A stretch of 62,165 bases of DNA, the filler included, from Babesia bigemina (lineage: Eukaryota), in NCBI RefSeq assembly GCF_000981445.1. It is 5 parts of 5 records of this genome, joined end to end, with 100 filler letters (N's around TTAATTAATTAA, not from the genome) between each part and the next. Parts side by side here need not be neighbours in the genome. Positions count along the whole stretch, not along the records: positions 39,845 to 51,958 come from NW_012237244.1; 4 more parts are not named here. One strand, given 5' to 3'. Within the stretch, counting starts at the first letter, position 1. The number at the start of each line of letters is the position of its first letter. The translations under genes were made by a program, and so were the position numbers. The notes under the pieces are model-generated. The model worked only from the letters and a program-made list of their open reading frames with translations, made no database searches and was not told where the DNA came from. Below, piece by piece: positions 14,775-51,559 of the stretch.

Positions 14775-17569
14775 GAGGTTAACAGGATCCTTGCCAAGCA
14801 TCTTCCCATATCGTCCAGGTAATTGGTAATACCGGTCTTCGAGTCACTTGATTTCGGCGTAGGTTTGTCACTGTCAACCAGCCCGGCGATTTCTTTGAGT
14901 TTGGTGGTGATTGATTCGAAGGGGGATTTGAAAGTTTCGTCGCTATCAATTTCTGTTCCGAGGGTCCCATTGTTAAGCTTGGTCGTCACATTTGTCTTAA
15001 TCTCACCGATCGCCGCGGGGAGGGAGCCTTCCTCGGTGGTGCCGGTTAGTTGTTCAGATTTCATCGGTTGAGAGACGTGACGTTTGTAACCTTCGAACTT
15101 TTTTGACTCCTCCGTGAGTGTGACAGTACTTTTACTTCTGTCACTACTCCCGATCTCCGTGTCGAGCGTCTCCGTAACCTTGTTGATCGCAGCGTCTACG
15201 GCGGCGGCGTAGTTGGTGCCGGCGGCATGGGTACCTAGTTTAAGCACTTTTTCGAGTTTTTCGTAAAAGTCATTGGCCGTATTCAATGACCCCTGCACCA
15301 TTGAGGCAATGTTAGGACTGGGATTGCTAAGCAGCAATGTTTTAAGTTCGTTCGCAACTTGCTTGGCCATGCCGACAAGCTGATGAAGGATGCCGTCAAC
15401 AGCATTGTAGAGGTCGGTTTTGTAATGATACGTTTGTTTGTCCTCATATACCAACTCCGTATCGTGTTCAATCTTCCGAATTATTTCATCTCCCTTGATA
15501 TCGCCGATTTTTATTTTGTTCTCAAGTTTCTTAGCCAACTCATCAAGACAAGAGGCCACATTTGTGAGATTTTCTTTTAAATCGGTAACATTTTTCTTCA
15601 CATGTGAGGCGCATTGCTTAATATCCTGCGTAAGCTTCGGCTTGATGTGATCGAAAATTATTTTCTTGACTTTATCCTGCGCCTCCTTTTGCTGTTTAAT
15701 TTTATAGTAACCGTACGTTTGGTTATATGTAACGTATTTTGTGAGAGACCCATCGACAGCTCCTAATACATTCAACACACTGCTCTCCATCCACCCATGT
15801 ACTGTATTTTCAATATTGGAATCGGTAAATTTATTAACATAGTCGCTTACTTTTTTTGTAACTCCTTGGAGTCCGGATAATCTTCCTGTTTCTCCAGTAT
15901 TTCCCCTGATGCTGCCAACTTGACCTTTTACATGCTTTAATACATTCTCGATGCCTTGATTATTTTTTCCTGCGCCTGTTCTCCCGAAGACAGTCTCGTA
16001 CAGCTCCCCTATCTTATTTTTAATCCCCGTCACCTGCCTACTAACAGCATCCTTCACCTTGTACAAATCCCCTTTAAGCGCAGCGTCCATAGATTTCACC
16101 TGCGCAAGCGCTCTTTGCACCCATGTACCTATCTGATTTTTAAGTTGTTTCGCCGCCTCACGAAGTTTATCAGCCTTATCTTTCATATCGCTTGCTAACC
16201 CATAAATTTTAGTTTTATCGACATTATTTGTAGTCTCAACCATCCCACCAATCTGCGTACACTTCTCCTTCGCCAGTTTCACAGCCTCCGTGCCCGCAGC
16301 ATTCCACTTAGTCAACTCTACAATTCTAGTATCAAGACCGTCGCTAATTGTTTGCACTTTTTCCTCAATTTTTTTCTTATCATTAGTCTCCCCCACTGCT
16401 GGTTCATTAACCTGTTTCAAAATTATGTCAACCTCTTTATCTGCCTCGTTAATTAACTTTCTAGCATCTTCGAGCCACGTATACAACTCTTTAACATAAC
16501 CCAGCAGTTTTTTCTCGATACCCTTTAACTTATCCAAAATCTTCTGCACCCTCTCACTCAACTTTTTAATCAACTCCTTCATTTGCGCATCAATTCTACA
16601 GTCCACGTTCACTTTCAAACTGCTCAACGTCTTCTTAATTTTATCTTCCGTTGCCTCTAAATCCTTACTCTCTTTACTAGACAACTCTTTAAGACGCTTA
16701 CTCTCATGCTGCATATTCTTACGCACGTTCTCAATTGTATCACGCAATTTGGGATTTAAGTCTTTTATTGCATTTTTTGTTGCATCTGTTTTTGTTTTAA
16801 TGTCAACAGCTCTAATAAATTCTTTTGCAAATTTTTGACACTGCTCCACCAAGGACATTGCCTTCTCGACACTCTCTTGGGTGGATGCCGTAGGCCTTTT
16901 TGGATCTATGTTATTTGGCAAGTTAGTTTGTAACTCTTCTTTTTTATAGTTTTTCATGTCCCTCTGAAGTTTTTTAATTGCCGTTTTAACAAGGTCATTG
17001 GATGTTTTTACATTACCATTATACCTCCCCACCCCTGCGACCACACTTCCAATCGCTTCATTAAAACCTTTTTTACCGGCGTGTTTATTTTTGTTAAGAG
17101 TGTCAATTGCAACATCTAAAGTATCTTTATGTTGCCCTAAATGGTCTTTGATGTTGCTGAGAACACCACTCAAAAATCCCATCACCGCATCACACAGCCT
17201 GTCAAGGTCAGAGTACACAATCCCCTGGCCATCGTAGCCTTTGGAAGTAGAGTTGAAGCCGAGGAAAGTTTCGAGGCCGTCACACAGATTATTAAGCAAT
17301 TCATTTGGATTATTTTTGTTGCTTTCACTTGCATTTTTAAGGCTCTCAAGTTTCTCTATCTGCTGAGTGATGTCATGACAATTCGAAGGATCTTGACAAT
17401 CAAGATTATGCGAAACATTTTTTGAGTTTTTACACTTATTTTGCCGTTCAGTAAGGATGTCTATAGCCTTCACAACGGCTTGCTTAACACTCTCACTTTG
17501 ACCAACAAATCCGCCAAGTTGACCAGCAAGGTGGCCAAGGCTAACAAGCTTGGACTCAATGTCCTGCAA
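14775..17569 (-). CDS. ves1: VESA1-like protein (gene 3), 3' part lost in the gap; first in-frame ATG at 17182
   Basis: LCDGLETFLGF...YSDLDRLCDAVMGFL motif; shares blocks with genes 6 and 7. Confidence 0.8.
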
Positions 17570-17805
17570 AGCTTTTTTAGTAGCATCGCCAGTAGGAGAA
17601 TGGTCGGCATCAGCAAATTCTTATAGTGGTTTACAGAGGTCATAGCGGTATTATGGCGAGGTAATTCGAGGGATTTGGAGTTTAGGTGAACATGATGGGA
17701 CATGGCAGTGGCAAGAGGTGGAAGAGGGGAAGTGAAGGGTGACAAGGCACAAGTTATTATTGTGGTTTAAAGAGGTCATAGCGGTATTATGGCGAGGTAA
17801 TTCAA
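17570..17805 (-). other. Duplicated ves leader (type II) with two copies of GAATTACCTCGCCATAATACCGCTATGACCTC
   Basis: Motif at about 17635-17668 and 17772-17803; same duplicated structure at 56058-56296. Confidence 0.75.
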
Positions 17806-18875: not shown

Positions 18876-19076
18876 TCAGCTGTAGAACGCGATGCAGAGG
18901 GGTATCTTGCGTACGAGGAACTCGCGGATGTTGCGGCCTACCGGGAAGCGGAAGATGCACAGGTCGAGCAGGATGATGGCGACGATGATGGCAACGATGA
19001 CGGCGGCGATGGCTTGGGGGTCAGGGGGGGAAGTAGCCATCTCACTGCTCATGTCATTGATCATCAACGCAATCAT
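18876..19076 (-). CDS. 66-aa TM/tail micro-ORF (...AIAAVIVAIIVAIILLDLCIFRFPVGRNIREFLVRKIPLCIAFYS); may be a gene relic
   Basis: ATG-started ORF with a hydrophobic helix; nearly the same peptide is encoded at 19165-19320 and 50968-51111. Confidence 0.5.
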   Translation of the reverse strand: MIALMINDMSSEMATSPPDPQAIAAVIVAIIVAIILLDLCIFRFPVGRNIREFLVRKIPLCIAFYS

Positions 19077-19164
19077 TACTCTGTCTATAACATTAGATGT
19101 CAGTTGGCAGTCAGGTGATCAGTGGGATTTGGATTACGATGTTAGCGCCAACAAATTGCTGATC

Positions 19165-19320
19165 TCAGCTGTAAAACGCGATGCAGAAGGGTATCTTGCG
19201 GACGAGGAAATCGCGGATGTTGCGGCCCACCGGGAAGCGGAAGATGCACAGGTCGAGCAGGATGATGGCGACGATGATGGCAACGATGACGGCGGCGATG
19301 GCGGAGTAGGGAGAAAGTGG
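19165..19320 (-). pseudogene. Headless TM/tail cassette (PYSAIAAVIV...RNIRDFLVRKIPFCIAFYS*), no in-frame start
   Basis: Translated by hand; in-frame TGA immediately upstream; stop at 19165-19167. Confidence 0.65.
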
Positions 19321-19406
19321 TCACCTCACTGCTCATCTGATTTGTCATCAACGCAATCATTACTGTCTACAACATTAGATGTCAGTTGGCATTTAGGTTA
19401 TTGTGA

Positions 19407-19814
19407 TCAGCTGCGCAGCAGATACCGCATCCTGTGGAAGGGCCGGATGCGGAAGTATATCATGACGCTGATGACGACGATGATGAGGGCGACGGCGGCG
19501 ATGATGATGGGAAGGACGGGGGAGGAGGAAGTGGAGGAATCGGCAAGCTGTGCACTGTACTGCGTGGCGGCAGGGCGTGAACGTTTCCTGTCACAACATG
19601 TACATTGACATCTATCGGTGTTACACGTGGTATCTCGAGTGCCGCAGTCCGAAGGATGGCATTTCTTCTGCTGTCTGAGTTGCCTGTTAGACTGCATACA
19701 TGATATGCACTTTCTAGAACTACCACATCTTGTACAACACCATGGACAGCAATAACACACGTCGAACTGTTTACATCTCCTACCTGGACAATCACAGTCC
19801 CATTCTCCAGACAT
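19407..19814 (-). CDS. Small cysteine-rich single-pass membrane protein (135 aa, 18 Cys, CCPWCC motif, C-terminal TM plus YFRIRPFHRMRYLLRS), copy 1
   Basis: Paralog at 50455-50862 keeps length, all 18 Cys and the tail despite divergent DNA, which indicates coding constraint. Confidence 0.85.
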   Translation of the reverse strand: MSGEWDCDCPGRRCKQFDVCYCCPWCCTRCGSSRKCISCMQSNRQLRQQKKCHPSDCGTRDTTCNTDRCQCTCCDRKRSRPAATQYSAQLADSSTSSSPVLPIIIAAVALIIVVISVMIYFRIRPFHRMRYLLRS

Positions 19815-20290
19815 CTTCCCCTCCCGCTCCCAGTCCCCTCAACCTGCAGACATGTCAATCACCTGAGCAACGCACTCACCAACTGCAACACTACCACTGC
19901 CGCTCCCACTCCCCTCAACCTGCTGACATATCAATCACCCAGCAACGCACTCACCAACTGCAACACGTACCACTGCCGCTCCCAGTCCCCTCACCCTGCG
20001 AACATGTCAATCACCTAGCAACGCACTCACCAACTGCAACACGTGCCACTGCCGCTCCCAGTACCCTCAACCTGCGAACATATCAATCACCTATGCAAGC
20101 ACTCACCAACTGCAACACGTACCACTGCCGCTCCCAGTCCCCTCACCCTGCGAACATGTCAATCACCTAGCAACGCACTCACCAACTGCAACACGTGCCA
20201 CTGCCGCTCCCAGTACCCTCAACCTGCAAACTTATCAATCACTCGAGCAGCACTCACCAACTGCAACACGTACCACTGCCGCTCACCAAC
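19815..20290. repeat. Repeat E array (about 76-bp unit) directly upstream of the Cys-rich gene
   Basis: Reverse complement of the array at 49600-50454. Confidence 0.9.
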
Positions 20291-21163: not shown

Positions 21164-24100
21164 TTACGGTTGCAGGTAAAACACCCTGTTAAGCTTGTTA
21201 ACACGTCCAGCAGCAAGGAGTGATTGAGCAGCGATGCGATGTGATGAGGGAGAGTGCAAATGCGATTTGATGTGGAGGAGGTCTAGGCGGATGACCATGA
21301 TGTGGAGCAGGTACAGGACAGAGAGGAGCCAGAGGGCTAGGACAAGGTAGGAGAATGGTTCACGGATTCTCCACAAGAACATGTCGCACTCTCGGAACAA
21401 CGTTTTGAAATACGTTGACCGCAGTACGTTGTACAACTGCTCCATGAAATTGGTACACGTCTTCTTGCCATCCTTCGCGTTCAAAGCTGCTGGAGCACCA
21501 AACGTAAAACCGTACTTATACAACGTAGGCATAGCACCCTTGCACTCTACGATACTGTAGCAGTGGCAATTCGGCGCTTTTGTTTTGTCGTTAACGAGAC
21601 CATGTTGACCACGCCTACAAGTGTCCGCACGCAGACAGGTACGACATCCCCAATCTTGGCAGTAGATGTCCCTGAACGAGTTGTACAGGGAATTGAGATA
21701 ATTCCAGAACGTCCATGGCAAATACACTGCCCATGACAAGTACGTCTTACATTGCGTCTTGGCAAGGTAAGTGTATTGATCGGCGCATAAGGCATACAGG
21801 TACGGGGCGCAGTAGACATTTTGGCCAGAACATGCGGTGGACATTGCGAGACTACAGAGGTCACCTTTTTTGACTTCATTTTCACTGCCGTCAGCAAGTT
21901 TAGTAGTATGTTTTGTTGCGTGGTTACCACTCTGGCTGCTACCATAAGCATCACTCAGCGCGTTGGTCAGCTGGCTGGCATCATCGTAGAGGGCAATAGA
22001 ACGGTCGGTGATAGCGTTATCAATACCTGTTCTTATTAGATGTTTGCCATGGTCATCCCACTTCTTAACAAGCGATAAAGCGAAGCCGAAGTGCTCTGGC
22101 AGCGTTGATGGAGGCTTTGAAACGAGGCTGAAGAGGCATGATGCGACATGTCTGCCGAAGAATTTACTTACAACTTCACACAGATCGCTGCCTGTCTTTG
22201 TAGAACCAGAGAAACTACGGAAGCCTAGAGGTGTCAAACAGGGCATTCCTGGTTTACCACTAGGACACGTAGCACATTTATAGCCACAACCAATGGAACC
22301 AACTTGGTGTGGCAGGCAACCAAGCAAGCTGTCACCAAGGTAGCACATTAATGGCGACGTAGGTTGGCAATTTGGTTGGTAGTTTGGTTGGCACTCTGCC
22401 TGGCACTTTGCTTTGTTCTTTGATTCTTTGCTACAATGCGATTTGGTCGTGGGTATATCTTTGCCGTAGCGACAGTCTGCCCAGCCCATGTCAGATGCGC
22501 CGAAGCTACACTGGCTGTGCAGGAATGACAAAACAGGGAACAAACGGCGAAGGATGTCTAGGATGGTATGCAAGCAGTCATCGCCTTTCTGAGGGTAGTA
22601 GAGGCCAAGTGAATTGTTGGAGTAGTCACAGGTATACGTCGTCTGTTCGTCACCTGTGCCGAGGATGGTGGTCAGCAGCTCATGGGAGTTGGTGCACAGG
22701 TCATTCATCGACTTCATCATTTCTCCGTACGTGATTTTCTGTGGGTACGCTTCTATGTAGTAGGATGACTTGTCGACGTATTCGACTTCAAAGTCGTCCT
22801 GCCCGTCTAGCACCTGTTTTTTGGGCTTAACAAGTAGGTCTGTGAAACCGTCATCTTTCAACGCTTGATAGGCTCTGTTGTACGAAAGACCTGTAAACCA
22901 TACCAACATTTCGTATATACTGCAAGGCGTTTTAGGTTTAGCGTGAATTACGAAGTGACCGACCTCATTATATTGTTGGATGTGTTTGAAGAAGCACGCG
23001 AGTACTGCGATGACATTAACGTCTTTCTTTACTGCAATTGCTTTTTCTTCTTCTGATTTCTTTTTATCATCGTCCTTACACTTTTGAAGATGCTCGTTAT
23101 CTTGGCTGCCTGTGATTGCGCCAATGAGATTTTTGATAATATGCTGACCCATCATCTCACCCGTATTACGCAACTCCCCGTCCTGCTTGGAGTGATCAGT
23201 GGCAACAATATAGCCGTTCCGCTTAAGATAACCGCCTAAACTACTAATGGCATTAATTTGTTTGCCGTACCAGGCGTTACTGCATTTGTCTTTCAATTCG
23301 TCGAAAGCATCATGGACCATCTCCAGTACGGTTATACCTACTTTCGCGCAATTTCTGCCATCTACTGTTAATTTCGCTCCAACGCCTGGGCCGCGACTTA
23401 CCTCCCAAGTAATGTCGTCAGCTCCCGAGTATTTATTAAAATAGGTTTTGTCTAACTCATTTGCCAGCTCTGTCAAACCGCTTTTAAGAGCGTCTAGGAT
23501 GGGACAGGAAGTAGTGCCAAAGTATCGAGGATTGACTTCTGCAAGCGATGTTCTGCATTTATGGAGAAGATTGACAAAATTGTGATCGAAGGTGTAACCT
23601 CCGTTGATGTTATCTTTGATGTGGGTAAATAGCTTGTAGAGCGCATTTCTAATTTCATCAATACCATTTTGATGCGCGATTTTGGCTCCACTCTGTGATT
23701 GTAATGTACGTCCAATATCGGTCCACACGTATGTGACAATTGAATCGAAGTATGTTCTTGCGACGGGTGCTAGAACTATAATCCCATTCTTATCTTTCAA
23801 TGCATTGAGGGTATTAGTATTCGAATTTTTTGAAGTGGCCCGAACACCGCTAAACGTCTTTAGGAAGCCTTTGATTCCTGTCGTCGAATCCGTGTCAATG
23901 ATTTTTGACACTCTTTCAATTTTTTTAGACACTTTAGTTTTCATTTCGTTATACATTCCATAGATTTTGTTGTAATATTGAGCTTTAGCTTCTCTTTGAA
24001 TTGCTTCTGTTTTCACTTTGACCTGATCCCCAACGTATTTATGTATGTCGGAAATGCATTCCATAGCCTCCTTTTTGATAATGGTATCATTAAAGTTTCT

Positions 24101-26515
24101 GGCCGCAACAAGAATGCTTTTGAAGTCGCCCTGTCGATTGTTTTCTAGTATATTTACAATGTCGTTTCTAATCTTCGTTAGACCATGGATCTTAACGTCT
24201 TTGGTCCTAATGGAGAGGGTAATGATATCGCTTTTTTCGATCATATTGCTGAGCGCATTCAAAATCTGCTTCATGCCATCCTTTCCGTGAACTGGCGTAA
24301 CTGACGTTTTGTCTGTTAACTTCTTAACTTCATTGATGAATACAGTGAAACTGCTATTGATTTTGGAAAACGCGTCGTCCAGCCTTTCGACGCTACTATA
24401 TTTAAGACTGACATCCACAGCATCCATTACCTCCCTTTCGATTTCCCCAATCGCATTTGGCAAAATTCCCTCGTCAGTAACGCCTTTGAACTTGCCGGCT
24501 GTAGCGGCAGTCATATTTACGCAGCCAAGGTAACGGTTGAATTTATCCTTGTCAAGCTGGACTTTGGCTTCTACGCCCACACCAAGGTGAAGATTTTGCG
24601 GATCATTTATGCCAATCTCTGCGTCAAGTATTCTATCCACGACGTTTTCGAATGTACTTTTTTCTAAGACAGAGTCTAGCGTTGTGATTTGTCTATTAAC
24701 AGCCTGCAATGCTGTATGGATTTTCTGGCCGTATTTATTTCCGGCGATATCGATGTCATTCCTGAGGTTTTCCACTTGTCTAATAGCGCCGTCCACATTG
24801 GCTTCTATCTGAGAATCACGGATGAGTGACTGGACTTCGTCAGCCGTTTGCTTCAGTACAAGGGAAAGTTGCAGGAGGAGCAGTTTTATAGATTCGGTGA
24901 GATGCGTTTTATACCGCTCGTAGGTCGCATTCTTCGTTACAATTTTTTCAACATTCAATGCAGTCTCCGCCTTGTTAAGTATCTCATCAGCTCGCTGCTC
25001 TAACTCGTCAAACGCCGTCGCAATGCTTGAGAAAGCACTATTAATTTCGCTCAATACTTGTTGTACTGTTGTTCCCTTGCCACTCGGTATTTTCAGCGCC
25101 CGAAGTTTAATCTCTTTCATAATCTCATCTTTGATGGCTTCTTGCACAGCCTCATCGCCCTGCTTTCCATTATGATTCAGGTTACCAGTGAGCTTGTTAT
25201 CCCTAACATACCCACCTATATACATATTTAGCCTAGTGTCATGTTTCAGGATTTTATTAATCCACTCATGAATGGCTCCGTCTTTCTGCGTCAACTTCTT
25301 CCCGACATCTTCAGCATATTTAGCTACGTCTTCAAGCAGCTTGGCAAGATGACCTTCGATTTTTCCACTCCCACTTTTTTTATAAATCCGGCCTACATGG
25401 AAGTCAACGCAGCTTTTTACCCAATCCCAATTATACTCAATACTTTCATCTGGCAAGCCGGTTTTTCGCTGCTTTATATTGCCTCTCAAATTTTCATACG
25501 GCCTTTGAACCTCAGTCTCTACATGACGCCAAATCTTAGATTTGATTTCATCCTTGACCTTCTTCAAATCCTCCTTAAGTGCCGTGTCCATTTGCATCAC
25601 AGCCGAAAGTGCTCGAGAAACAAACGTCTGAACTTGTTCCTTAGCATCCGTTGCAGCGTATAAAAGTGACTCGGCATGCTGTTTCAAGGCATTTGCTGCC
25701 GAGTCCACGGCAGATTTCTCCGTGTTTCCCGGAACCTTTCCGTTTAACTTGTTCAGAATCTTGTCAACCATATTGACGGCATCACTTACTTGCTTTTCCG
25801 ACTCATGTATCCATATATCCAGCGCCATCTTCACATTCTCTAAATCCTGTTGAACGATAGCAATGGGCTTGTTTATTTCACTCTCAAATGCTCTATTAAT
25901 CTTATGTCCCATCTGATCAAGACGCTCTTTAACACGCCGATCCACATTGGTTTTTAACTCCTTTAACCGCTCTTGCCCCTTATCTAGCAAAGCCTTTAAT
26001 TCGTTGTTCGTCGCCGCACCAACGAACCTTTCTATTTCAATTTCCACGATGCTGACGGGCGTTTTCAACTTATTTTCAAGTCCATGGTCGAGGTAAGCAA
26101 GCTGAGTACAACAATAAGTTAGTGACTTTTGAAGACTTTCGGCTGACGCAATGCATTCACGTAGTTTATCGCTAACTTCACCGAGCTGACCAGGTTCACT
26201 AAGTGCTTTAAGTGCAGCAAGTGATGTATCCATGCTTGTAATATTACTATTTTGTAGTGTATTAAACGCCCTTTTAACTGTCTCAGTTCTAAATTCCACC
26301 TCCCTATCCCACTCCCCCAGCGCCGTGCTCACAGCCTCAACGGCCGCAGACAATCCACCAGGTTTGTACATATTGTCTTTAATTTTTTTGAGTGTTTCAG
26401 TCATTTTATCTACAGGATAATACGTTTTAACCGCTTCATCATCTTTCACCGCACCAAGCACACCACTCAAAAATCCCATCACCCCGTCACACAGCCTATC
26501 CAAGTCGGAGTACAC
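21164..26515 (-). CDS. ves1: VESA1-like protein (gene 4; GTGD subtype); first ATG at 26479; homology extends to an in-frame TAA at 26633-26635
   Basis: 1783-aa ORF with conserved motifs, TM and YLQP tail. Confidence 0.85.
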   Translation of the reverse strand: MYSDLDRLCDGVMGFLSGVLGAVKDDEAVKTYYPVDKMTETLKKIKDNMYKPGGLSAAVEAVSTALGEWDREVEFRTETVKRAFNTLQNSNITSMDTSLAALKALSEPGQLGEVSDKLRECIASAESLQKSLTYCCTQLAYLDHGLENKLKTPVSIVEIEIERFVGAATNNELKALLDKGQERLKELKTNVDRRVKERLDQMGHKINRAFESEINKPIAIVQQDLENVKMALDIWIHESEKQVSDAVNMVDKILNKLNGKVPGNTEKSAVDSAANALKQHAESLLYAATDAKEQVQTFVSRALSAVMQMDTALKEDLKKVKDEIKSKIWRHVETEVQRPYENLRGNIKQRKTGLPDESIEYNWDWVKSCVDFHVGRIYKKSGSGKIEGHLAKLLEDVAKYAEDVGKKLTQKDGAIHEWINKILKHDTRLNMYIGGYVRDNKLTGNLNHNGKQGDEAVQEAIKDEIMKEIKLRALKIPSGKGTTVQQVLSEINSAFSSIATAFDELEQRADEILNKAETALNVEKIVTKNATYERYKTHLTESIKLLLLQLSLVLKQTADEVQSLIRDSQIEANVDGAIRQVENLRNDIDIAGNKYGQKIHTALQAVNRQITTLDSVLEKSTFENVVDRILDAEIGINDPQNLHLGVGVEAKVQLDKDKFNRYLGCVNMTAATAGKFKGVTDEGILPNAIGEIEREVMDAVDVSLKYSSVERLDDAFSKINSSFTVFINEVKKLTDKTSVTPVHGKDGMKQILNALSNMIEKSDIITLSIRTKDVKIHGLTKIRNDIVNILENNRQGDFKSILVAARNFNDTIIKKEAMECISDIHKYVGDQVKVKTEAIQREAKAQYYNKIYGMYNEMKTKVSKKIERVSKIIDTDSTTGIKGFLKTFSGVRATSKNSNTNTLNALKDKNGIIVLAPVARTYFDSIVTYVWTDIGRTLQSQSGAKIAHQNGIDEIRNALYKLFTHIKDNINGGYTFDHNFVNLLHKCRTSLAEVNPRYFGTTSCPILDALKSGLTELANELDKTYFNKYSGADDITWEVSRGPGVGAKLTVDGRNCAKVGITVLEMVHDAFDELKDKCSNAWYGKQINAISSLGGYLKRNGYIVATDHSKQDGELRNTGEMMGQHIIKNLIGAITGSQDNEHLQKCKDDDKKKSEEEKAIAVKKDVNVIAVLACFFKHIQQYNEVGHFVIHAKPKTPCSIYEMLVWFTGLSYNRAYQALKDDGFTDLLVKPKKQVLDGQDDFEVEYVDKSSYYIEAYPQKITYGEMMKSMNDLCTNSHELLTTILGTGDEQTTYTCDYSNNSLGLYYPQKGDDCLHTILDILRRLFPVLSFLHSQCSFGASDMGWADCRYGKDIPTTKSHCSKESKNKAKCQAECQPNYQPNCQPTSPLMCYLGDSLLGCLPHQVGSIGCGYKCATCPSGKPGMPCLTPLGFRSFSGSTKTGSDLCEVVSKFFGRHVASCLFSLVSKPPSTLPEHFGFALSLVKKWDDHGKHLIRTGIDNAITDRSIALYDDASQLTNALSDAYGSSQSGNHATKHTTKLADGSENEVKKGDLCSLAMSTACSGQNVYCAPYLYALCADQYTYLAKTQCKTYLSWAVYLPWTFWNYLNSLYNSFRDIYCQDWGCRTCLRADTCRRGQHGLVNDKTKAPNCHCYSIVECKGAMPTLYKYGFTFGAPAALNAKDGKKTCTNFMEQLYNVLRSTYFKTLFRECDMFLWRIREPFSYLVLALWLLSVLYLLHIMVIRLDLLHIKSHLHSPSSHRIAAQSLLAAGRVNKLNRVFYLQP

Positions 26516-42486: not shown

Positions 42487-45400
42487 GTGTACTCTGACCT
42501 GGATAGGCTGTGTGACGGGGTGATGGGATTTTTGTATGGTGTGCTTATGGATGTCAGCGAGAAACAGCCTTACAGTGTGGGTAAAAGAGAGATAAATGAA
42601 GCTGTTGAAATGCTTAAAAAGAATTTATCCACCGGGCGTGAGGGTTTTAGTGTCATTGCGCAGGTGGCGGGGAAGGTGCGGGAGTATAATGAGAGAGTTA
42701 AGCAAAGTAACGATGATATGAAAACCATAATAAACAATATGGACAGAGACATGAAAACGCTTCAAAATGAGGTAGGTAACATTCTACGAAATAATCCTGA
42801 TTCAGAAAATTTTGATGAAGTCAAGCAGGCTGAAACCTTGGTCACTAAGCTGGCCGACGAGTATGCAAAAAAAGGTATGAATTTCGATAGTAATTTTGTC
42901 ATAAGAGAGATAAACGCATGGAGGACAGGTGCTAATGTTGAGCCAATACAGCAATTCAAAGACATAAATTCTGACCTGAGATTAAAAATCACCCATGCAA
43001 GAAACAATATCACGCATGAGGCTGAGAGGCTTACGACACTGTCAAAGAAGCAGAAAGAGAACTTGGCTGCGATGACTAGTATGATTAGTAATAAGCTCAA
43101 AACGCTTAAAAGCTGTGTCAATGAGCGAATTTTGCAAGATGTCAATGAGCTTGTTAGCAAGGTGAATGAGAAAGTTGCGGCAATTTTGCAATTGCTACAG
43201 AGGATCAGCGCGACGCTTTGGAATTATGTTAATGAATTGGGGAGGTGGATTAAGGATGCGGAAGGAATTGTGACTCAAGCAATTAAGGACACGAAAGAAA
43301 TCGAGCAAAAAGGACCGGGTTGGCAAAACCAGGATAAGATCAATGAGAAAGCAAAGGAGTTCAAGGACAAGGCTACGGATCTCTACTGGAAATTTGAGGG
43401 TGCGAAGCGGTCAGTTGAGGAGGGCGTAAAAAGCGCGAAAATTGAGAATGTTGAGCAGTTGACTACGTGGAAGAAGGCAGGCGACGCGGCCGTTACGAAG
43501 GCGAAGAGACAAGGTGCGGCAATTGGTGAGATGGTTCAGACTAAAGGTGCAGGTAAGGAGGATATTTATAAGTTAGCTAACGATATGAAAACAAAGGCTG
43601 AGAATCTCAGAGCGGCGGCGAAGCATATTAAGAAAGAGATTGGAGGATGGGTTAAAACAGCGCTTACGCAGGTGAAGGATATGGATGAGGCGCTGAAGAA
43701 GGATTTGTATAAGGTGAAGGAGGCTGTTAGTAGGCAGGTAGAAGGGATTAAGACGGCGATTGGGAAGTTGTATAAAGTGGTTGAGACTGGAGACACGGAA
43801 GGGGCAACGCACAACTCAATGGTCGAGATGGTCGACCTTATAAAAAATAAGATAAAGACCATTGAAGGGGTAGGCGGAAGGTTCGTAACTAAACCAACCG
43901 GGCTGTGGGCAATCAGTCAGCAGGTTCCGACCTACGTTAAGACGTTTGAGAACTTTGATGCGACGGTCGCTGATTGGGTGAGGGAGATTGTGAGAAGGAT
44001 GGTAGCAAATAATGGTCCCCTGCATGAGCATATTGACATGTATGCTTCCGAAATAGAAACTCTGCAAAATAACCGTGAACAACTGCTTCCTAAGGTGAAG
44101 GAACAAATCATTACCAAGGTCATAGCCAAGGTAAAAGAAATTGCGTTAGCTCACAAAGCGGATCTTGCCACCAATGGAAATGTGGAAACCGATTTAAAAT
44201 TGATTAAAAGATTCCTTGATCACTTTAATGGGCAAAGTCTACAGAATGGTGTTGACCATATAGTCAGTGCTATAGAGAAGGCAGGTGAATTACAAGTGGA
44301 TCCCTCCAAACAAAATGTTATACACAACTCAGATCTGAAGAATGCCGTAAATATAGTTTTGCATGTTTTTTCAATGGCTGCTGAAAAAATGGGTGAGCAA
44401 ATTCAGAAGCTTGCTACTGACTGCCATCTCGGCAAAATCAACGAGGCATTGACCACGGCTAGCGATTTTGAAGAGAAATTGAAACAAGCTACAGGAAACC
44501 AATCCGTTGGAACATCCAGCAGTAGGATTAACTTTGCCCTCGCCGTCGACAACGCGATCAGGGAGGTGACGGAAGAGCTTGGGAGAAAATTGATTACCGC
44601 CGCTGGTGATACAGTCACGCTGGAAACAACGACTGCCTTCTCCAAATACGATGGCTTTGTCGACCAAGACAAAGTGTCCTCCCTTTCCAACTCTGACTTC
44701 GAAGCCATCAAAAGCGCAGGCTCCCTCCCCGCGGCGATCGGTGCGATAAAGACGCAGGTGACGAGTAAGCTTAACGAAGGTAAACTAGCATCAGAAATAG
44801 ATGCCTCTGACACTTTCACCGATCCCTTCGGTAAAATCACCGAAAAACTCAAAACCATCGCCGGGCTGGTTGACAGCGACAAAAGTAATCTGCGTCCAGC
44901 ACCGGGAGATGGCCAGAAGAACGGCGTGAACAACTACCTGAATGATATTACAAGTATGCTTGGCAAAACTCCCGTCGACCTCAAGTCAGATATAAAAGGG
45001 AGCCACCCAAATGTCAAAGGCCTCGAGACGATAAAGAGTGAAATCGACTCCGCGCTCGACGGGATTAAAAATAAAGCTGACGCAGAATTTGATGCCGCAA
45101 AAGCAACTACAGACAGCGGAAACATATTCACAACTTTGTCCACCGCGATCACTACGAATCTCAAAGACCTTTTGGCAGCTTTCGAGGAGGCAGGCAAACA
45201 AGTGAACAAACATTTGCAAAAATTAAAAACCAACATCGGCAAGAAGGAACATGGCGCTGATGCTGCAGTTGGTACGCTGCAGAAAATCCACGACAATCTT
45301 GTTACCTTGTTGAACGGTGACATTAGCCAAGTCATCAATGACGCCACTGCCTTCAAAAAACAAGCCAATCAATTGCGTGATAAAACAATCGGAGCACTCA

Positions 45401-48222
45401 ACGGACACGTCGAAGATGAAGTTAAAAAAGCCGAAACCGCCCTCATCACCCAGGCCAACAAAAACTACGTCACGTCCGTCAAAGAGATGCTGACTGCCTT
45501 CGCCGACAAGGTGCAGAAGGAACTGAAGCCCCTCCCCGGCGAGATCGACACCGACAGGCAGCACGGCTTTAAGGGTTTCATGCGGACGTTGCAGGGGACG
45601 TTCAACGGTGATGAGACTTTGACTGACAATATTGACAAACTCAAGGGTCTCGTAAGTGAACTGTCAGGGACTGTGAATCACAAGGAGGCGTTCGCAAAAT
45701 TGTCGCAAAAATTAAAGGAGTTCTGCTCACCACTTCACGACTACCTCAAAGAAGAGATCAGAAGGGTTCACGCAGCGAATCAAGAGAAAACAAATCCCAA
45801 GCCATCTGGCGACGAACAGCTCTACACCTCCAAACTCGAAGCTGCACATATCGCGCTCAACAATCTACTCGATCACATTAGTAATCACCGCTACAACCAC
45901 GAAGTGCCCGCCTTGCTTGACATCCTCTCCACTAAAGTCGATGGTCTGCACCCCAAGACATTCAATGAACCGAGCACTCCGCTGCTTGACGGCGTTGGCA
46001 AGGGTGTTCACGGGTTCGTTAGTGAACTGGACAAGGCGTACATCTCGACCTACGACAGTGAGACCTTTGGCGGTGAGATGTTCGAGAAAGATAAATTAAC
46101 AGCCTATGGCACAAAATTCGCCAAAATATGCTTCACCGTGGTATGCACCCTCAACTCCACGTTGACCGACTTGACGCACAATTGCAAGAGTCTACGTGGA
46201 CAGCAAATTAATAAGTCCACCGACGTGGGAAGATCATTCGTCGGCCACGGCTACGCGGTCTCCGATGCGGCGCTGCAGAACGGCGAGTTGCAAAACAAAC
46301 CGACAGTGGCGGGAGAGAACGTTGCTAAGCGGTTGCTGCTACCAATTCGCGGCGCCGACGAGAACCAACACCTTAAATGGTGTGAATCGAACGAGCAGAG
46401 AAAAGCCGACCACTTCCACGTCTTCGACGCCATTGACTGCATATTCAGCCACTTCGAGCAGTACAACGAACTCTGCCACCTGCTCACGGCCTCAGCGAAG
46501 CAGCACCCCTGCTCCGTGTACGACATATTGATCTGGCTCAGCGGTTTCCCGTACACTGCAGTATATGCTACGATGAGTGATATAACCATCAGTGATCTAT
46601 TTGACAACCCGCATAAGAAGGCGGCCGGCGACGACGAACTTGAGCTCACATCGACTGACATGGCAGCCCAATCCATAACGGCGCACCCCCGAAACATATC
46701 GTATACTTACGTACGTAAAGCCGTGGACCATATCTGTGCGACGTCCTATGACGTATTGACTGCCGTTGTCGGCACTGGCGACTCCAGGACCGTTTACGCC
46801 TCCGACTTCTGCAACAACTCATTCAACTTCCATTACCCATCGGATCCGTCGGACTGCCTGGACATGCTGCTGGACCTACTGCGCCGATTGTTGCCCGTGT
46901 TCCGGTTCTTGGAACTGCAGTGTAACATCAAGCCTGAACACCACGGTTGGTCACAGTGCCGCTACGGGAGGGACATCCCTACAACCAAATCGCAGTGTAA
47001 CGAGCACTCAAGCGAAGAAGCAAGCGGACAAGCAAAGTGCCAAGTAAACTGCCAGCCAACGTCCCCCCTTATGTTATACCTCAGTGACAGCCTCCCTGGC
47101 CATCTGCCGCACCAACTGCAGTCAGTGGGATGCAGAGCGAAATGCAGCACCTGCCCTAAGAACCAACCAGGGCAACTGTGCTTGATTCCTCTCGGATTCA
47201 AGGGCTTCTCGGGAAGCTCCAAAACGGGCAGACAGTTGTGCGAAGCAATCAAGATCTTCATCGGTACAGGCTTAATATCCTCACTGATGTGCCTCCTGCC
47301 GAAGCCACCATCCACGCTGCCCGAGCACTTCCAGTTTGTATTCACGTTGGTTGGTGCGTTTAATGCTAACAGAGATGTCAACTCAAATGCCGTCAATGCT
47401 GCGTTTGTGAAGGCAATAAGGAAGCAGTCCATCGACTTGTATGCGGAGCCATCAGAACTCACAGGCGCGCTTCAGAAGGCTTATAACAGCAACGAGCAGC
47501 ACGACGGTACGGAGCATCCCAAAGCTTCAGATGCCGATTTGTCAACATTGTCTAAAGCAAAGACATGTAATTATCCGAACAAGGATGTTCACTGCGCTCC
47601 GTACCTGTCCACGTTGTACAGTGATGCATACCACTACGCTGCCGAGAAGCACGCCGGTCTCTACCTGTCATGGGCAGTGTACTTACCGTGGTCGTTTTGG
47701 CAGTGTCTTGAATCTTTGTTCAAAGCGTTTACCAACATATCCTGTCAGGATTGGGGATGTAGTCGCTGCACGCACGGCACGGCTTGTAAACGGGGTAAGC
47801 ATGGCGCTGCCTATAATTGCCAGTGCAAAGGCCTCGTTGAATGCCGCGGTGTCATAAGCACGTTATATAGTTTCGGATTCACGTTTGGCAATCCAGCGAC
47901 GCTTTCAGCTGCAGAGGGAAAAAGGTATTGCCACAATTTCTACAGACAACTCCACAATGTATTAAATTCCAACTACTTCAGAACGCTGTTCGAAAAATGC
48001 GACGAATTCATTTTCACCATCAGACAGCCGTTCATATGGATGACCGTGGCGCTCTGGTCACTATCTCTCTTCTACCTCCTTTGCGTAATGGTTGGCAGAC
48101 TGGATGTGCTCCACATACGCTCACACCTGAGGATACCGTCATCACACAAGATAACGGCGCAATCATTGTTGGCTGCAGCGCAAGTCGGAAGGCTTGCCAA
48201 GATATCGTATCTACAACCGTAA
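42487..48222 (+). CDS. ves1: VESA1-like protein (gene 7; GTGD subtype); first ATG at 42523; in-frame TAA in leader at 42367-42369
   Basis: 1911-aa ORF with conserved motifs, TM and ...AKISYLQP tail. Confidence 0.85.
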   Translation: MYSDLDRLCDGVMGFLYGVLMDVSEKQPYSVGKREINEAVEMLKKNLSTGREGFSVIAQVAGKVREYNERVKQSNDDMKTIINNMDRDMKTLQNEVGNILRNNPDSENFDEVKQAETLVTKLADEYAKKGMNFDSNFVIREINAWRTGANVEPIQQFKDINSDLRLKITHARNNITHEAERLTTLSKKQKENLAAMTSMISNKLKTLKSCVNERILQDVNELVSKVNEKVAAILQLLQRISATLWNYVNELGRWIKDAEGIVTQAIKDTKEIEQKGPGWQNQDKINEKAKEFKDKATDLYWKFEGAKRSVEEGVKSAKIENVEQLTTWKKAGDAAVTKAKRQGAAIGEMVQTKGAGKEDIYKLANDMKTKAENLRAAAKHIKKEIGGWVKTALTQVKDMDEALKKDLYKVKEAVSRQVEGIKTAIGKLYKVVETGDTEGATHNSMVEMVDLIKNKIKTIEGVGGRFVTKPTGLWAISQQVPTYVKTFENFDATVADWVREIVRRMVANNGPLHEHIDMYASEIETLQNNREQLLPKVKEQIITKVIAKVKEIALAHKADLATNGNVETDLKLIKRFLDHFNGQSLQNGVDHIVSAIEKAGELQVDPSKQNVIHNSDLKNAVNIVLHVFSMAAEKMGEQIQKLATDCHLGKINEALTTASDFEEKLKQATGNQSVGTSSSRINFALAVDNAIREVTEELGRKLITAAGDTVTLETTTAFSKYDGFVDQDKVSSLSNSDFEAIKSAGSLPAAIGAIKTQVTSKLNEGKLASEIDASDTFTDPFGKITEKLKTIAGLVDSDKSNLRPAPGDGQKNGVNNYLNDITSMLGKTPVDLKSDIKGSHPNVKGLETIKSEIDSALDGIKNKADAEFDAAKATTDSGNIFTTLSTAITTNLKDLLAAFEEAGKQVNKHLQKLKTNIGKKEHGADAAVGTLQKIHDNLVTLLNGDISQVINDATAFKKQANQLRDKTIGALNGHVEDEVKKAETALITQANKNYVTSVKEMLTAFADKVQKELKPLPGEIDTDRQHGFKGFMRTLQGTFNGDETLTDNIDKLKGLVSELSGTVNHKEAFAKLSQKLKEFCSPLHDYLKEEIRRVHAANQEKTNPKPSGDEQLYTSKLEAAHIALNNLLDHISNHRYNHEVPALLDILSTKVDGLHPKTFNEPSTPLLDGVGKGVHGFVSELDKAYISTYDSETFGGEMFEKDKLTAYGTKFAKICFTVVCTLNSTLTDLTHNCKSLRGQQINKSTDVGRSFVGHGYAVSDAALQNGELQNKPTVAGENVAKRLLLPIRGADENQHLKWCESNEQRKADHFHVFDAIDCIFSHFEQYNELCHLLTASAKQHPCSVYDILIWLSGFPYTAVYATMSDITISDLFDNPHKKAAGDDELELTSTDMAAQSITAHPRNISYTYVRKAVDHICATSYDVLTAVVGTGDSRTVYASDFCNNSFNFHYPSDPSDCLDMLLDLLRRLLPVFRFLELQCNIKPEHHGWSQCRYGRDIPTTKSQCNEHSSEEASGQAKCQVNCQPTSPLMLYLSDSLPGHLPHQLQSVGCRAKCSTCPKNQPGQLCLIPLGFKGFSGSSKTGRQLCEAIKIFIGTGLISSLMCLLPKPPSTLPEHFQFVFTLVGAFNANRDVNSNAVNAAFVKAIRKQSIDLYAEPSELTGALQKAYNSNEQHDGTEHPKASDADLSTLSKAKTCNYPNKDVHCAPYLSTLYSDAYHYAAEKHAGLYLSWAVYLPWSFWQCLESLFKAFTNISCQDWGCSRCTHGTACKRGKHGAAYNCQCKGLVECRGVISTLYSFGFTFGNPATLSAAEGKRYCHNFYRQLHNVLNSNYFRTLFEKCDEFIFTIRQPFIWMTVALWSLSLFYLLCVMVGRLDVLHIRSHLRIPSSHKITAQSLLAAAQVGRLAKISYLQP

Positions 48223-49600: not shown

Positions 49601-50454
49601 ATGAGGGGAGTGGGAGCGGCAGTGGTAGTGTTGTGTTGGTGAGTGCGTTGCTAGGTGATTGATGTTAGCAGGTTGAGGGGAGTGGTAGCGGCAGTGGTAC
49701 GCGTTGCAGTTGGTGAGTGCGTTGCTTAGGTGATTGATATGTTCGCAGGTTGAGGGGACTGGGAGTGGCAGTGGTACGTGTTGCAGTTGGTGAGTGCTGC
49801 TTGAGTGATTGATATGTCTGCAGGCTGAGGGGACTGGGAGCGGCAGTGGTACGTGTCGTAGTTGGTGAGTGCGTTGCTTAGTGATTGATATGTTCGCAGG
49901 TTGAGGGGACTGGGAGTGGCAGTGGTACGTGTTGCAGTTGGTGAGTGCTGCTTGAGTGATTGATATGTTCGCAGGTTGAGGGGAGTGGAAGGGGCAGTGG
50001 TACGTGTTAGTTGGTGAGTGCGTTGCTAGGTGATTGATACGTTTGCAGGTTGATGCGACTGGGCGCGGCAGTGTACGTGTTGCAGTTGGTGAGTGCTTTG
50101 CTAGGTGATTGATATGTTTGCAGGTTGAGGGGACTGGGAGCGGCAGTGGTACGTGTTGCAGTTGGTGAGTGTTTGCTTAGGTAATTGATATGTTTGCAGG
50201 CTGAGGGGACTGGGAGCGGCAGTGGTAGTGTTGCAGTTGGTGAGTGCGTTGCTTAAGTGATTGATATGTTTGCAGGTTGAGGGGAGTGGGAGCGGCAGTG
50301 GTACGTGTCGTAGTTGGTGAGTGCTGCTTAGGTGATTGACATGTTCGCAGGTTGAGGGGACTGGGAGGGGCAGTGGTACGTGTTGCAGTCGGTGAGTGCG
50401 TTGCTTAGGTGATTGATGTCTGCAGGTTGAGGGGACTGGGAGGGGAAGGGGAAG
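49600..50454. repeat. Repeat E array (about 76-bp unit, about 11 copies)
   Basis: Unit GTGAGTGCGTTGCTTAGGTGATTGATATGTTCGCAG-GTTGAGGGGACTGGGAGCGGCAGTGGTACGTGTTGCAGTTG. Confidence 0.92.
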
Positions 50455-50862
50455 ATGGGTAGAGGACGATGCTTGAATTGCAATAATAATTGTAATCCGC
50501 CAGCTGTATGTATTTGCTGCCCATGGTGTTGTGACAAATGTAATGGTATCAGCTGTGATCAATGTTCGGAGGCAAACAGACCCCTCAGACTACGGAAAGT
50601 ATGCAACGCTTCTCAATGTGAACTTAATAAGGGCACGTGTACAAAAATTGGCAGTTGTCAATGTAAGTGTTGTGAGCAGAAACGCTCTACTTCCGGTCAC
50701 TCCTCTACATTCAGCGCTCATTCTAAGACCGACACTCAACCGCATACATCACCCGCCCCTTACATCATCGTCCCCGTTGCCATCATCATCCTCGTCGTCT
50801 GCGTCATGGTCTACTTCCGCATCCGGCCGTTCCACAGGGTGCGGTATCTACTGCGCAGCTGA
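50455..50862 (+). CDS. Small cysteine-rich single-pass membrane protein (135 aa), copy 2
   Basis: 18 Cys align with 19407-19814; TM plus YFRIRPFHRVRYLLRS; same context ...GAGGGGAAG/AAGGGGAAG-ATG. Confidence 0.85.
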   Translation: MGRGRCLNCNNNCNPPAVCICCPWCCDKCNGISCDQCSEANRPLRLRKVCNASQCELNKGTCTKIGSCQCKCCEQKRSTSGHSSTFSAHSKTDTQPHTSPAPYIIVPVAIIILVVCVMVYFRIRPFHRVRYLLRS

Positions 50863-50967
50863 TCGCAATCACCTAACTGGCAACTGACATCTAATGTTCT
50901 AGGCAGTAATGGTTGCGTTGATAATCAATCACATGAGCAGGGAGGTGACTACTTCACTACCCCTCCC

Positions 50968-51111
50968 TACTCCGCCATCGCCGCCGTCATCGTTGCCATC
51001 ATCGTCGCCATCATCCTGCTCGACCTGTGCATCTTCCGCTTCCCGGTGGGCCGCAACATCCGCGATTTCCTCGTCCGCAAGATACCCTTCTGCATCGCGT
51101 TTTACAGCTAA
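50968..51111 (+). pseudogene. Headless TM/tail cassette (YSAIAAVIV...IPFCIAFYS*)
   Basis: Translated by hand; no in-frame ATG; frame open back to the TGA at 50860-50862. Confidence 0.65.
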
Positions 51112-51555: not shown

Positions 51556-51559
51556 TGAT

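What the first reader, a model, noticed from the sequence alone, without database searches (positions are those of the whole stretch)
50455..50862. Unrecognised family of small 18-cysteine membrane proteins embedded in the ves array (paralog at 19407-19814)
Seen: two 135-aa ORFs with 18 positionally matched Cys (C-x1-2-C-x3-4-C-x5-C-x-CCPWCC-x2-C-x4-5-C-x2-C-x3-NRxLRxxKxC-x2-S-x-C-x6-C-x4-5-CQCxCC-x2-KRS). Inter-cysteine residues are highly divergent. They are followed by a Ser/Thr/Pro stalk, one TM helix and a near-invariant basic tail YFRIRPFHRxRYLLRS; there is no signal peptide. Established: VESA1 has the same layout (no signal peptide, variable ectodomain, C-terminal TM, conserved short tail), whereas B. 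bovis SmORFs carry signal peptides. Inference: a miniature, hypervariable disulfide- or metal-knotted variant surface antigen family co-archived with ves1.
Basis: partly seen in the sequence, partly recalled or inferred. Interest (0 to 1): 0.88.

Follow-up and report, generated by a model that had tools for sequence, protein, structure and literature searches.

The report
Unnamed 18-cysteine Babesia membrane-protein family
Two unannotated 135-residue genes lying next to ves1-like genes of the cattle parasite Babesia bigemina belong to an unnamed family of about sixty small proteins that keep a fixed frame of 18 cysteines, vary at almost every other position and end in a membrane anchor; they likely sit in a membrane with a disulfide-knotted variable head facing outward and would then be candidate variant antigens, but no expression data could be examined.

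Summary
The ORFs at 50455-50862 (+) and 19407-19814 (-) each encode 135 aa and are 45% identical (E 8e-27). Each has 18 N-terminal Cys, a Ser/Thr/Pro stalk, one C-terminal TM helix, a basic tail and no signal peptide.

The window is five Babesia bigemina BOND contigs joined by N spacers, not B. bovis. Both ORFs lie next to ves1-like genes within their own contigs, and neither is in the protein collection.

I found 59 BOND gene models, and every one that carries a name is called "hypothetical protein". They use two related anchors: FRIRPFHRVRYLLRS, as here, and FRFPVGRNIRDFLVRKIPFCIAFYS. Relics of the second anchor lie just downstream of both window genes.

Across 16 full-length members, Cys columns are 99% identical and the other columns of that domain 20%. 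Pre-TM Cys counts are even in 15 of 16, and an extra Cys pair is gained or lost together. This favours disulfides and an outward-facing head.

The near-invariant tail is no better conserved than the non-coding flanks (83% vs 83-86% DNA identity), so homogenisation explains it equally well.

Pfam, PDB sequence and ves-profile searches found no relative, and AlphaFold2 gave no confident fold. Expression and topology are untested, so the surface-antigen role remains inference.

The parts
50455..50862 (+). Family member A: 135-aa ORF. Cys-rich domain 50455-50688, stalk 50689-50754, TM helix about 50761-50817, basic tail RIRPFHRVRYLLRS and stop to 50862. Anchor type 1.
19407..19814 (-). Family member B: 135-aa ORF, 45% identical to A, with the same 18-Cys scaffold and a type 1 anchor.
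49602..50442 (+). 75-bp tandem repeat (11.2 copies) ending 12 bases before the ATG of A. All 11 units hold a GTGAGT...YAG stretch of 33-36 bases that looks like a mini-intron. Likely a promoter or a multi-intron 5' leader of the gene.
   Evidence: Peptides derived from this repeat form the N-termini of 30 of 59 BOND models.
19824..20284 (-). The same repeat (76-bp unit, 6.1 copies) directly upstream of B.
50907..51111 (+). Type 2 anchor module downstream of A. It is open in the native frame, NGCVDNQSHEQ..PPYSAIAAVIVAIIVAIILLDLCIFRFPVGRNIRDFLVRKIPFCIAFYS*, and is preceded by a branch-point/AG-like spacer (50863-50906). It is either a relic or an alternative 3' exon.
   Evidence: It matches the C-termini of P0044 and P0046.
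19142..19362 (-). Type 2 anchor module downstream of B. Its TM+tail is 98% identical in DNA to the module after A, but the TM frame is closed by stops upstream (broken).
18876..19078 (-). Second type 2 anchor module downstream of B. Here the ATG frame runs into the TM, giving an intact 66-aa ORF (18876..19076).
42523..48222 (+). ves1-like gene (1899 aa) upstream of A on the same contig.
   Evidence: The ves1 likeness of this ORF class rests.
21164..26479 (-). ves1-like gene (1771 aa) upstream of B on the same contig.
14775..17620 (-). N-terminal part of a ves1-like gene downstream of B, cut by the contig end.

Best explanation
The two ORFs are unannotated members of a Babesia bigemina multigene family of small proteins built from an invariant 18-Cys frame, a variable stalk, one C-terminal TM helix and a conserved basic tail. 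These proteins are likely inserted with the tail in the cytosol and a disulfide-bonded, hypervariable head on the far (lumenal or outer) side of the membrane, where they would act as variant membrane antigens alongside ves1.

Shown:
- the family, its scaffold and its variability;
- the two anchor types;
- the position beside ves1-like genes;
- the mosaic of conserved flanks around a diverged core.

Inferred:
- Disulfide bonding, from even Cys counts and paired gain or loss of Cys.
- N-out topology, from those disulfides plus the positive charge after the TM.
- Diversification by recombination between the conserved flanks, as is known for B. bovis ves1.
- Exposure to host immunity.

The type 2 anchor modules downstream of each gene are most likely leftovers of an anchor duplication. 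Their use as alternative 3' exons is possible but untested.
For: The family is real and restricted to B. bigemina among the hits that could be named:
- 12 of 12 hits are B. bigemina hypothetical proteins.
- A profile search of 1.84 billion representatives gave 29 hits at E<=1e-3. I count 28 as family, because P0041 matches only at the TM.
- A profile word search gave 51 of 51 hits named B. bigemina.
- 10 of 10 looked-up hits are BOND.
- The union is 59 models.

Scaffold:
- In 16 full-length members, 16 Cys and W24 are invariant.
- Cys columns are 99.3% pairwise identical, against 20.1% for the other columns of the domain.
- In 13 of the 15 models with the strict N-terminal motif, the motif starts 6-11 residues after the model's Met, as in the window ORFs. 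The other two start at 5 and 68.

Disulfide signature:
- Pre-TM Cys number 18 or 20 in 15 of 16 members.
- After the CxCxCC motif, 22 members have two extra Cys, 18 have none and 2 have one. Those 2 carry a compensating extra Cys inside the motif. This covers 42 members with the motif out of 61 examined.

Topology hints:
- The tail is +5 and the segment before the TM is 0 or -1.
- Weak, sub-threshold Pfam matches of the stalk+TM region are all to type I mucin-like proteins such as Endomucin, Glycophorin A and Syndecan.

Cassette-like mosaic: DNA identity between A and B is 83% in the 5' flank, 58% in the Cys domain, 36% in the stalk, 83% in TM+tail and 86% in the 3' spacer.

Context:
- The Cys unit is present in only 2 of the window's ves-like intergenic regions, always as 75-bp repeat, then ORF, then anchor modules.
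- No protein of 238 aa or more carries the domain.
- PMC4066756 (sections 20-21 read) notes unnamed species-specific genes with a conserved C-terminal end and TM, and other multi-copy genes at ves loci.
Against: - No expression evidence.
- 17 of 17 family ids are absent from a blood/kinete RNA-seq table of 3,721 detected genes (PMC9806345, supplement 1). However, 3 of 3 ves-like accessions are absent too, so this says little.
- The family ids I searched were not found in the 3 searchable supplements of PMC4066756; a fourth file was not searchable.
- A TM ending 14-16 residues before the C-terminus is the geometry of tail-anchored proteins, which normally keep the N-terminus in the cytosol (established cell biology, recalled).
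- A published machine-learning exportome gave 2 of 2 looked-up relatives low export scores of 0.06-0.08.
- Many BOND models are truncated, frameshifted or repeat-derived. Only 15 of 59 carry the strict full N-terminal motif.
- dN/dS at non-Cys sites is about 0.8 with saturated dS, so positive selection is not shown.
- AlphaFold2 gave no confident fold: mean pLDDT 57.6 and 50.2.
- The conserved tail is equally well explained by homogenisation.
Confidence: 0.5

Rival explanations
1. The protein is tail-anchored and its head faces the cytosol. The GET/TRC40-type route inserts it after translation, so the 18-Cys domain stays in the reducing cytosol of the parasite, or of the host cell after export. 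There it would bind zinc or be palmitoylated, acting as an adaptor or membrane-organising factor rather than an antigen.
For: There is no signal peptide, and the TM ends 14-16 residues from the C-terminus. The CC, CxC and CxxC clusters resemble metal- or lipid-modified motifs. OutCyte calls one relative 'Intracellular' with score 0.93.
Against: Cys counts are even in 15 of 16 members, and the extra C-x7-9-C pair is gained or lost together. That fits disulfides better than a metal site, because two Cys alone do not make one. The tail is strongly positive, so the positive-inside rule places it in the cytosol. Hypervariability at all non-Cys positions (20% identity) is unusual for an intracellular adaptor. 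Aromatic residues, including an invariant Trp, are present in every domain, unlike metallothioneins (recalled).
Confidence: 0.2
2. The family is a largely silent, decaying archive. The copies are carried along and shuffled with the ves intergenic repeats, perhaps serving as recombination donors. Few or none make a stable protein, and the window ORFs are open but not expressed.
For: 30 of 59 BOND models start in repeat-derived sequence, and only 15 of 59 keep the strict full N-terminal motif. Some models read the Cys domain out of frame, for example P0002, P0004, P0040, P0072 and P0074. The three type 2 anchor modules in the window sit in three different frames. The two window ORFs were not annotated. 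No expression data were found.
Against: 17 of 17 aligned Cys codons are kept despite saturated divergence, and all gaps in the Cys domain are in-frame. Sixteen full-length members keep 16 invariant Cys and a Trp. This pattern needs purifying selection on a translated product, at least in the recent past.
Confidence: 0.2
3. The ORF is not a gene of its own. It would be an exon, or an upstream ORF, of a larger spliced ves-like transcript that runs on through the downstream anchor modules and repeats.
For: The spacer after the stop looks like a branch point plus AG acceptor. Some BOND models splice from FHR into the next module, for example P0030, P0033 and P0045 (two-TM models) and P0010, P0029 and P0032. 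In copy A, a CG|GTATCT donor spliced to the acceptor at 50908 would be in frame with the type 2 module (my reading).
Against: No protein of 238-2000 aa carries the domain: 30 candidates, none scored. The stop after YLLRS is kept in both window copies and in all 8 BOND sequences of alignment A1, one of which (P0008) has a 3-residue extension. The downstream modules are in three different frames. Profile comparison with the ves C-terminal domain gives probability 0.2%.
Confidence: 0.05

Closest known systems
VESA1 / ves1 of Babesia (B. bovis ves1 alpha/beta; B. bigemina ves1a/ves1b)
   Same: Both lack a signal peptide and have a variable N-terminal part, a single C-terminal TM and a short conserved tail. 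Both are multi-copy and share the same loci (PMC9477259 Table 1 passages; PMC4066756 section 22).
   Different: This protein is about a tenth of the size. Profile-profile comparison with the C-terminal domains of the window's nine ves-like ORFs gives probability 0.2%. The TM and tail sequences are unrelated to the ves tail ...SSHRIAAQSLLAA...YLQP.
B. bovis SmORF and B. bigemina/B. divergens ves2
   Same: All are small multi-copy genes interspersed with ves1 (PMC4066756).
   Different: SmORF and ves2 have a signal peptide and no membrane anchor. This family has no signal peptide and has a C-terminal TM. Jackson et al. found no smORF homologue in B. bigemina, and ves2 is defined by homology to the 5' end of ves1b. 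I did not compare sequences directly, because no named SmORF or ves2 sequence was at hand.
Plasmodium RIFIN/STEVOR-type small variant membrane proteins
   Same: Both are small, hypervariable and multi-copy, lie next to the major variant antigen genes and have a conserved C-terminal TM and basic tail (recalled). A weak Pfam RIFIN match covers the stalk/TM region in 2 of 16 members.
   Different: The RIFIN match is far below threshold (15 bits against 32). RIFINs have a signal peptide or PEXEL motif (recalled), and the 18-Cys domain has no counterpart.
PEXEL-negative exported proteins of Plasmodium with one TM and no signal peptide (REX2, MAHRP1, SBP1), and tail-anchored proteins in general
   Same: The architecture matches: no signal peptide and a single hydrophobic segment that must serve as the only membrane-entry signal (class features recalled).
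   Different: There is no sequence relation. Here the TM lies unusually close to the C-terminus, and export is untested.

Membership tests
Unnamed B. bigemina 18-Cys / C-terminal-anchor family (BOND 'hypothetical proteins' such as BBBOND_0111400, _0403980, _0313350) | Cys scaffold C-x2-C-x3-C-x5-C-x-CC-x-W-CC-x2-C ... C-x-C-x-CC | tested here: met
   Both window ORFs carry all 16 invariant Cys and W24 of the 16-member alignment. The profile E-values of relatives go down to 5e-43.
Unnamed B. bigemina 18-Cys / C-terminal-anchor family | Conserved TM plus tail of type 1 (FRIRPFHRVRYLLRS) or type 2 (FRFPVGRNIRDFLVRKIPFCIAFYS) | tested here: met
   Both ORFs have type 1. Among the BOND models, 22 are type 1 only, 33 type 2 only, 3 both and 1 neither.
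Unnamed B. bigemina 18-Cys / C-terminal-anchor family | 75/76-bp tandem repeat directly upstream | tested here: met
   The repeat lies upstream of both window copies. Peptides derived from it are found in 30 of 59 BOND models.
VESA1 / ves1 | [quoted passage not shown] | tested here: not met
   hhalign of the family alignment A3 against the C-terminal 520 aa of nine ves-like ORFs gives probability 0.2%, E 0.28.
B. bovis SmORF | N-terminal signal peptide and no TM | tested here: not met
   No hydrophobic N-terminal segment and one C-terminal TM. Published values for two relatives are SignalP 0.039 and 0.043 with TMHMM 1.
BbigVes2 | Signal peptide, no TM, and homology to the 5' 500 bp of ves1b | tested here: not met
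   The architecture does not fit. Homology to ves1b 5' ends was not tested, because no named ves1b sequence was available.
RIFIN (PF02009) | Pfam gathering score of 32 bits | tested here: not met
   15 bits, E 0.024, over the stalk/TM region only. 2 of 16 members match at E<=1.
Tail-anchored membrane proteins (class) | No signal peptide and a single TM within about 30 residues of the C-terminus | tested here: met
   The TM spans residues 103-121 or 101-119 of 135, with no N-terminal hydrophobic segment.
Tail-anchored membrane proteins (class) | Post-translational insertion with the N-terminus in the cytosol | not testable with these tools
   This needs topology experiments. The even Cys counts argue against it.
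Metallothionein-like metal-binding domains | Very Cys-rich and essentially free of aromatic residues (recalled definition); Pfam metallothionein models | tested here: not met
   No Pfam hit to any Cys-rich family at E<=10 or E<=1. Each domain has 1-10 aromatic residues, and one Trp is invariant.

The most novel reading that the evidence does not exclude
B. bigemina carries a second, miniature variant-antigen system: about sixty ves-linked genes for signal-peptide-less, C-terminally anchored proteins. Their nine-disulfide knotted heads are displayed on the infected red cell or the merozoite. They are diversified by cassette exchange between conserved flanks. Alternative 3' splicing can switch them between two membrane anchors.
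Probability: 0.2. Interest if true: 0.8.

Novelty: new variant of a known kind. Interest (0 to 1): 0.6.

Why it matters
Bovine babesiosis still lacks a subunit vaccine. In B. bigemina only ves1a, ves1b and ves2 are named as variant families at these loci (PMC4066756; reviews PMC4413850 and PMC9477259). A further ves-linked family of about sixty members has been sitting in the databases as 'hypothetical protein', and some copies are not annotated at all. It has a fixed cysteine frame and otherwise free variation. If expressed, it would be an obvious candidate for immune evasion, for serology or strain typing, and for studying how proteins without signal peptides reach membranes in Babesia. It also points to annotation problems: repeat-derived N-termini appear in half of the models, and small ORFs are missed.

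Tried and rejected
- **Whole genome.** None is held for this window, so copy number rests on annotated proteins only.
- **Published tables.**
  - 17 of 17 family ids are absent from the RNA-seq table of PMC9806345, but 3 of 3 ves-like accessions are absent too, so this is uninformative.
  - The supplements held for PMC4066756 do not contain the ids; 3 files were searched and 1 was not searchable.
  - The supplements of PMC5660447 hold no BBBOND ids at all.
- **Full-text searches.** Nine family ids gave 0 papers. Term searches for a described family found only the ves/smORF/mfs/6-Cys literature.
- **Structure.** Two AlphaFold2 runs gave mean pLDDT 57.6 and 50.2, and only the TM helix was confident. 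I therefore ran no fold search, because such a model gives meaningless matches.
- **Other look-alike searches.** The ESM Atlas look-alike search of the Cys domain gave no usable hit. The PDB sequence profile gave only TM-level noise with E>=0.25. Pfam gave nothing for the Cys domain. Rfam found no family in the window.
- **Derivation from ves1.** Rejected as undetectable.
- **dN/dS as a test of positive selection.** Inconclusive: 0.8 with saturated dS and only two DNA copies.
- **Complex prediction.** Not used, because the report makes no binding claim.

Full report
**Observation**

Each encodes 135 aa from an ATG.
- They are 45% identical (BLASTP E 8e-27).
- Each has 18 Cys in the first 73 residues. 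17 align without a gap, and the 18th differs only in C-x2-C versus C-x-C spacing.
- A Ser/Thr/Pro-rich stretch follows, then a 19-residue hydrophobic segment (Kyte-Doolittle means 2.96 and 3.20) and a tail of net charge +5.
- Nothing hydrophobic lies at the N-terminus.
- tblastn finds only these two copies in the window.

**What the window is**

Pairs of 44-N runs at 14675-14774, 27252-27351, 39745-39844 and 51959-52058 split the window into five pieces.
The cluster mates of those proteins are B. bigemina BOND proteins.
- The window is therefore a chain of unplaced B. bigemina contigs, and its apparent mirror symmetry is an artefact.
- Real linkage exists only within contigs.
  - Copy B lies between a 1771-aa ORF (21164-26479, -) and the N-terminal part of another (up to 17620, -).
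  - Copy A lies 2.2 kb downstream of a 1899-aa ORF (42523-48222, +).
- These large ORFs share a conserved C-terminal TM and tail.
- The C-terminal 520 aa of the 970-aa ORF (53632-55191) has as nearest ESM Atlas look-alikes clusters named 'Variant erythrocyte surface antigen-1 family protein', or clusters carrying VESA1_N in 14-79% of members (score 0.96-0.97).
- Pfam itself does not recognise them. I call them ves1-like on that basis. I had no named ves1 sequence to align.

**The family**

- The first search found 12 relatives, all named B. bigemina hypothetical proteins. None was 238 aa or longer.
- A profile search of 1.84 billion representative proteins gave 29 hits at E<=1e-3, of which 28 are family.
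- A profile word search gave 51 hits, all 51 named B. bigemina. 10 of 10 exact look-ups are BOND proteins.
- The union is 59 gene models.
- The exact window ORFs are not in the collection, and their best relative is only 62% identical. They are therefore unannotated.

- Type 1, ..FRIRPFHRVRYLLRS, occurs alone in 22 models.
- Type 2, ..AIAAVIVAIIVAIILLDLCIFRFPVGRNIRDFLVRKIPFCIAFYS, occurs alone in 33 models.
- Three models carry both and one carries neither.

In an alignment of 16 full-length members, 16 Cys and one Trp are invariant. Pairwise identity is:
- 99.3% in Cys columns;
- 20.1% in the other columns of the domain;
- 25% in the stalk;
- 85% within type 1 and 93% within type 2 for the TM+tail.

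**Locus anatomy**

Each window gene has a 75/76-bp tandem repeat directly upstream (49602-50442, 11.2 copies; 19824-20284, 6.1 copies).
- All 11 units of the first array contain GTGAGT...YAG of 33-36 bases, which looks like an intron.
- Translations of the spliced units, such as VEGTGSGSGTCCSW and LRGLGAAVV, form the N-termini of 30 of 59 BOND models.
- The repeat is therefore a family-wide upstream element that the annotation has probably over-read as coding sequence.

Downstream of each stop lies a spacer with a CTAAC/CTAAT...AG look, followed by one type 2 anchor module (copy A) or two (copy B).
- The module after A is open in the native frame. The first after B is closed by stops. The second after B is an intact 66-aa ORF. 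So three modules sit in three different frames.
- Some BOND models splice from the type 1 tail into such a module (P0030, P0033, P0045; P0010, P0029, P0032).
- I read the modules as leftovers of an anchor duplication. Alternative 3' exon use is possible but untested.
- The 12-, 20-, 22- and 24-bp repeat arrays around the unit occur in all ves-like intergenic regions of the window. The 75-bp repeat, ORF and module unit occurs only at these two places.

**Selection versus homogenisation**

Between A and B, DNA identity runs as follows:

| Segment | DNA identity |
|---|---|
| 5' flank | 83% |
| Cys domain | 58% |
| Stalk | 36% |
| TM+tail | 83% |
| Non-coding 3' spacer | 86% |
| Type 2 TM+tail | 98% |

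- dS is about 1.1 in the Cys domain and 0.26 in the TM+tail.
- The 'near-invariant tail' is thus part of a homogenised flank and does not by itself show protein-level constraint.
- The Cys scaffold does show constraint. 17 of 17 aligned Cys codons survive a background of pN 0.50, and the gaps in the domain are all multiples of three.
- dN/dS at non-Cys sites is about 0.8, but dS is saturated, so positive selection is not shown.
- Conserved flanks around a diverged core are what recombination-driven cassette exchange would produce. B. bovis ves1 diversifies by segmental gene conversion (cited in PMC4066756 and PMC5660447; I saw only the reference lists and passages). For this family that mechanism is inference.

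**Disulfide or metal, outside or inside**

- Pre-TM Cys number 18 or 20 in 15 of 16 full-length members.
- Of 61 sequences examined, 42 have the C-terminal CxCxCC motif. After it, 22 have two further Cys (K-C-x7-9-C), 18 have none and 2 have one. Those two carry one extra Cys inside the motif.
- Cys that come and go in pairs are the mark of disulfide partners, which places the head in an oxidising compartment.
- The strongly positive tail points the same way.
- Against this, a TM so close to the C-terminus is the geometry of tail-anchored proteins, whose heads stay cytosolic. VESA1 shows that Babesia can expose proteins with this layout (PMC9477259 Table 1, passages).
- Structure prediction could not help (pLDDT 57.6 and 50.2).

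**Relation to known families**

- No Pfam family matches the Cys domain. There is no PDB sequence relative, no ESM Atlas look-alike and no profile similarity to the ves C-terminal domain.
- SmORF and ves2 have signal peptides and no anchor, so the layout differs.
- Jackson et al. 2014 (sections 20-22 read) named ves1a, ves1b and ves2. They found no smORF homologue in B. bigemina. [quoted passage not shown]
- Two reviews list no such family (passages).
- Searches for nine family ids in 8.4 million full texts found nothing.
- One machine-learning exportome table lists two members with SignalP 0.04, one TM and low export scores.
- The family is therefore in the databases but, as far as these searches reach, undescribed. 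Supplements I could not search may hold more: one file of PMC4066756 and the cluster tables of PMC5660447, which carry other ids.

**Verdict**

- About 0.85: a real, lineage-restricted, ves-linked family of small Cys-knotted, C-terminally anchored proteins.
- About 0.5: the head is disulfide-bonded and faces outward.
- About 0.2: it is an expressed variant surface antigen.

Expression and topology are the open questions.

Noticed in passing
window 14675-14774, 27252-27351, 39745-39844, 51959-52058: Each junction is two runs of 44 N separated by 12 bases. The window is five separate B. bigemina contigs chained together, so gene order across these points is not genomic. The ORF at 14723-17620 runs into one spacer and translates as X's.
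   Followed up: yes
window 49602-50442 and 19824-20284: A 75/76-bp tandem repeat in which every unit holds a 33-36-base GTGAGT...YAG intron-like stretch and a roughly 41-base 'exon'. BOND gene models translate spliced units into N-terminal peptides such as VEGTGSGSGTCCSW and LRGLGAAVV in 30 of 59 family models. This is probably a repeated 5' leader or promoter that has been mis-read as coding sequence.
   Followed up: partly
window 18876-19076 (-): An intact 66-aa ORF, MIALMINDMSSEMATSPPDPQAIAAV...FRFPVGRNIREFLVRKIPLCIAFYS, consisting of a type 2 anchor alone. The sister modules at 19142-19362 (-) and 50907-51111 (+) carry the same TM in other frames. It is not in the protein collection.
   Followed up: partly
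window 1-1600, 7226-8274, 14118-14674, 17808-18700, 26783-27251, 33356-33807, 39190-42219, 51208-51958, 55318-56058, 61513-62165: Arrays of 12-bp (GCTGACCAATGT), 20-bp and 22-bp (TAACCCACTCTACATCGCCCCT) repeats recur in every region between ves1-like genes. A 24-bp array (48371-49101, 20812-21021, 32659-33368) follows some ves 3' ends. The lead of the type 2 module grades into the 12-bp repeat at 51196-51245.
   Followed up: partly
PMC9806345 supplement 1 (not in the window): BBBOND_0312490 and BBBOND_0312500 are the next gene numbers after family member BBBOND_0312480. They are among the most kinete-upregulated genes (logFC 15.5 and 9.8). This hints that some genes around family loci are tick-stage specific.
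   Followed up: no
window 50543-50887 (+): A 114-aa ORF overlaps copy A in another frame. BOND models P0002, P0004, P0040, P0072 and P0074 read part of the Cys domain in such a shifted frame (V/N-rich peptides), which points to frameshifted copies or forced gene models.
   Followed up: partly
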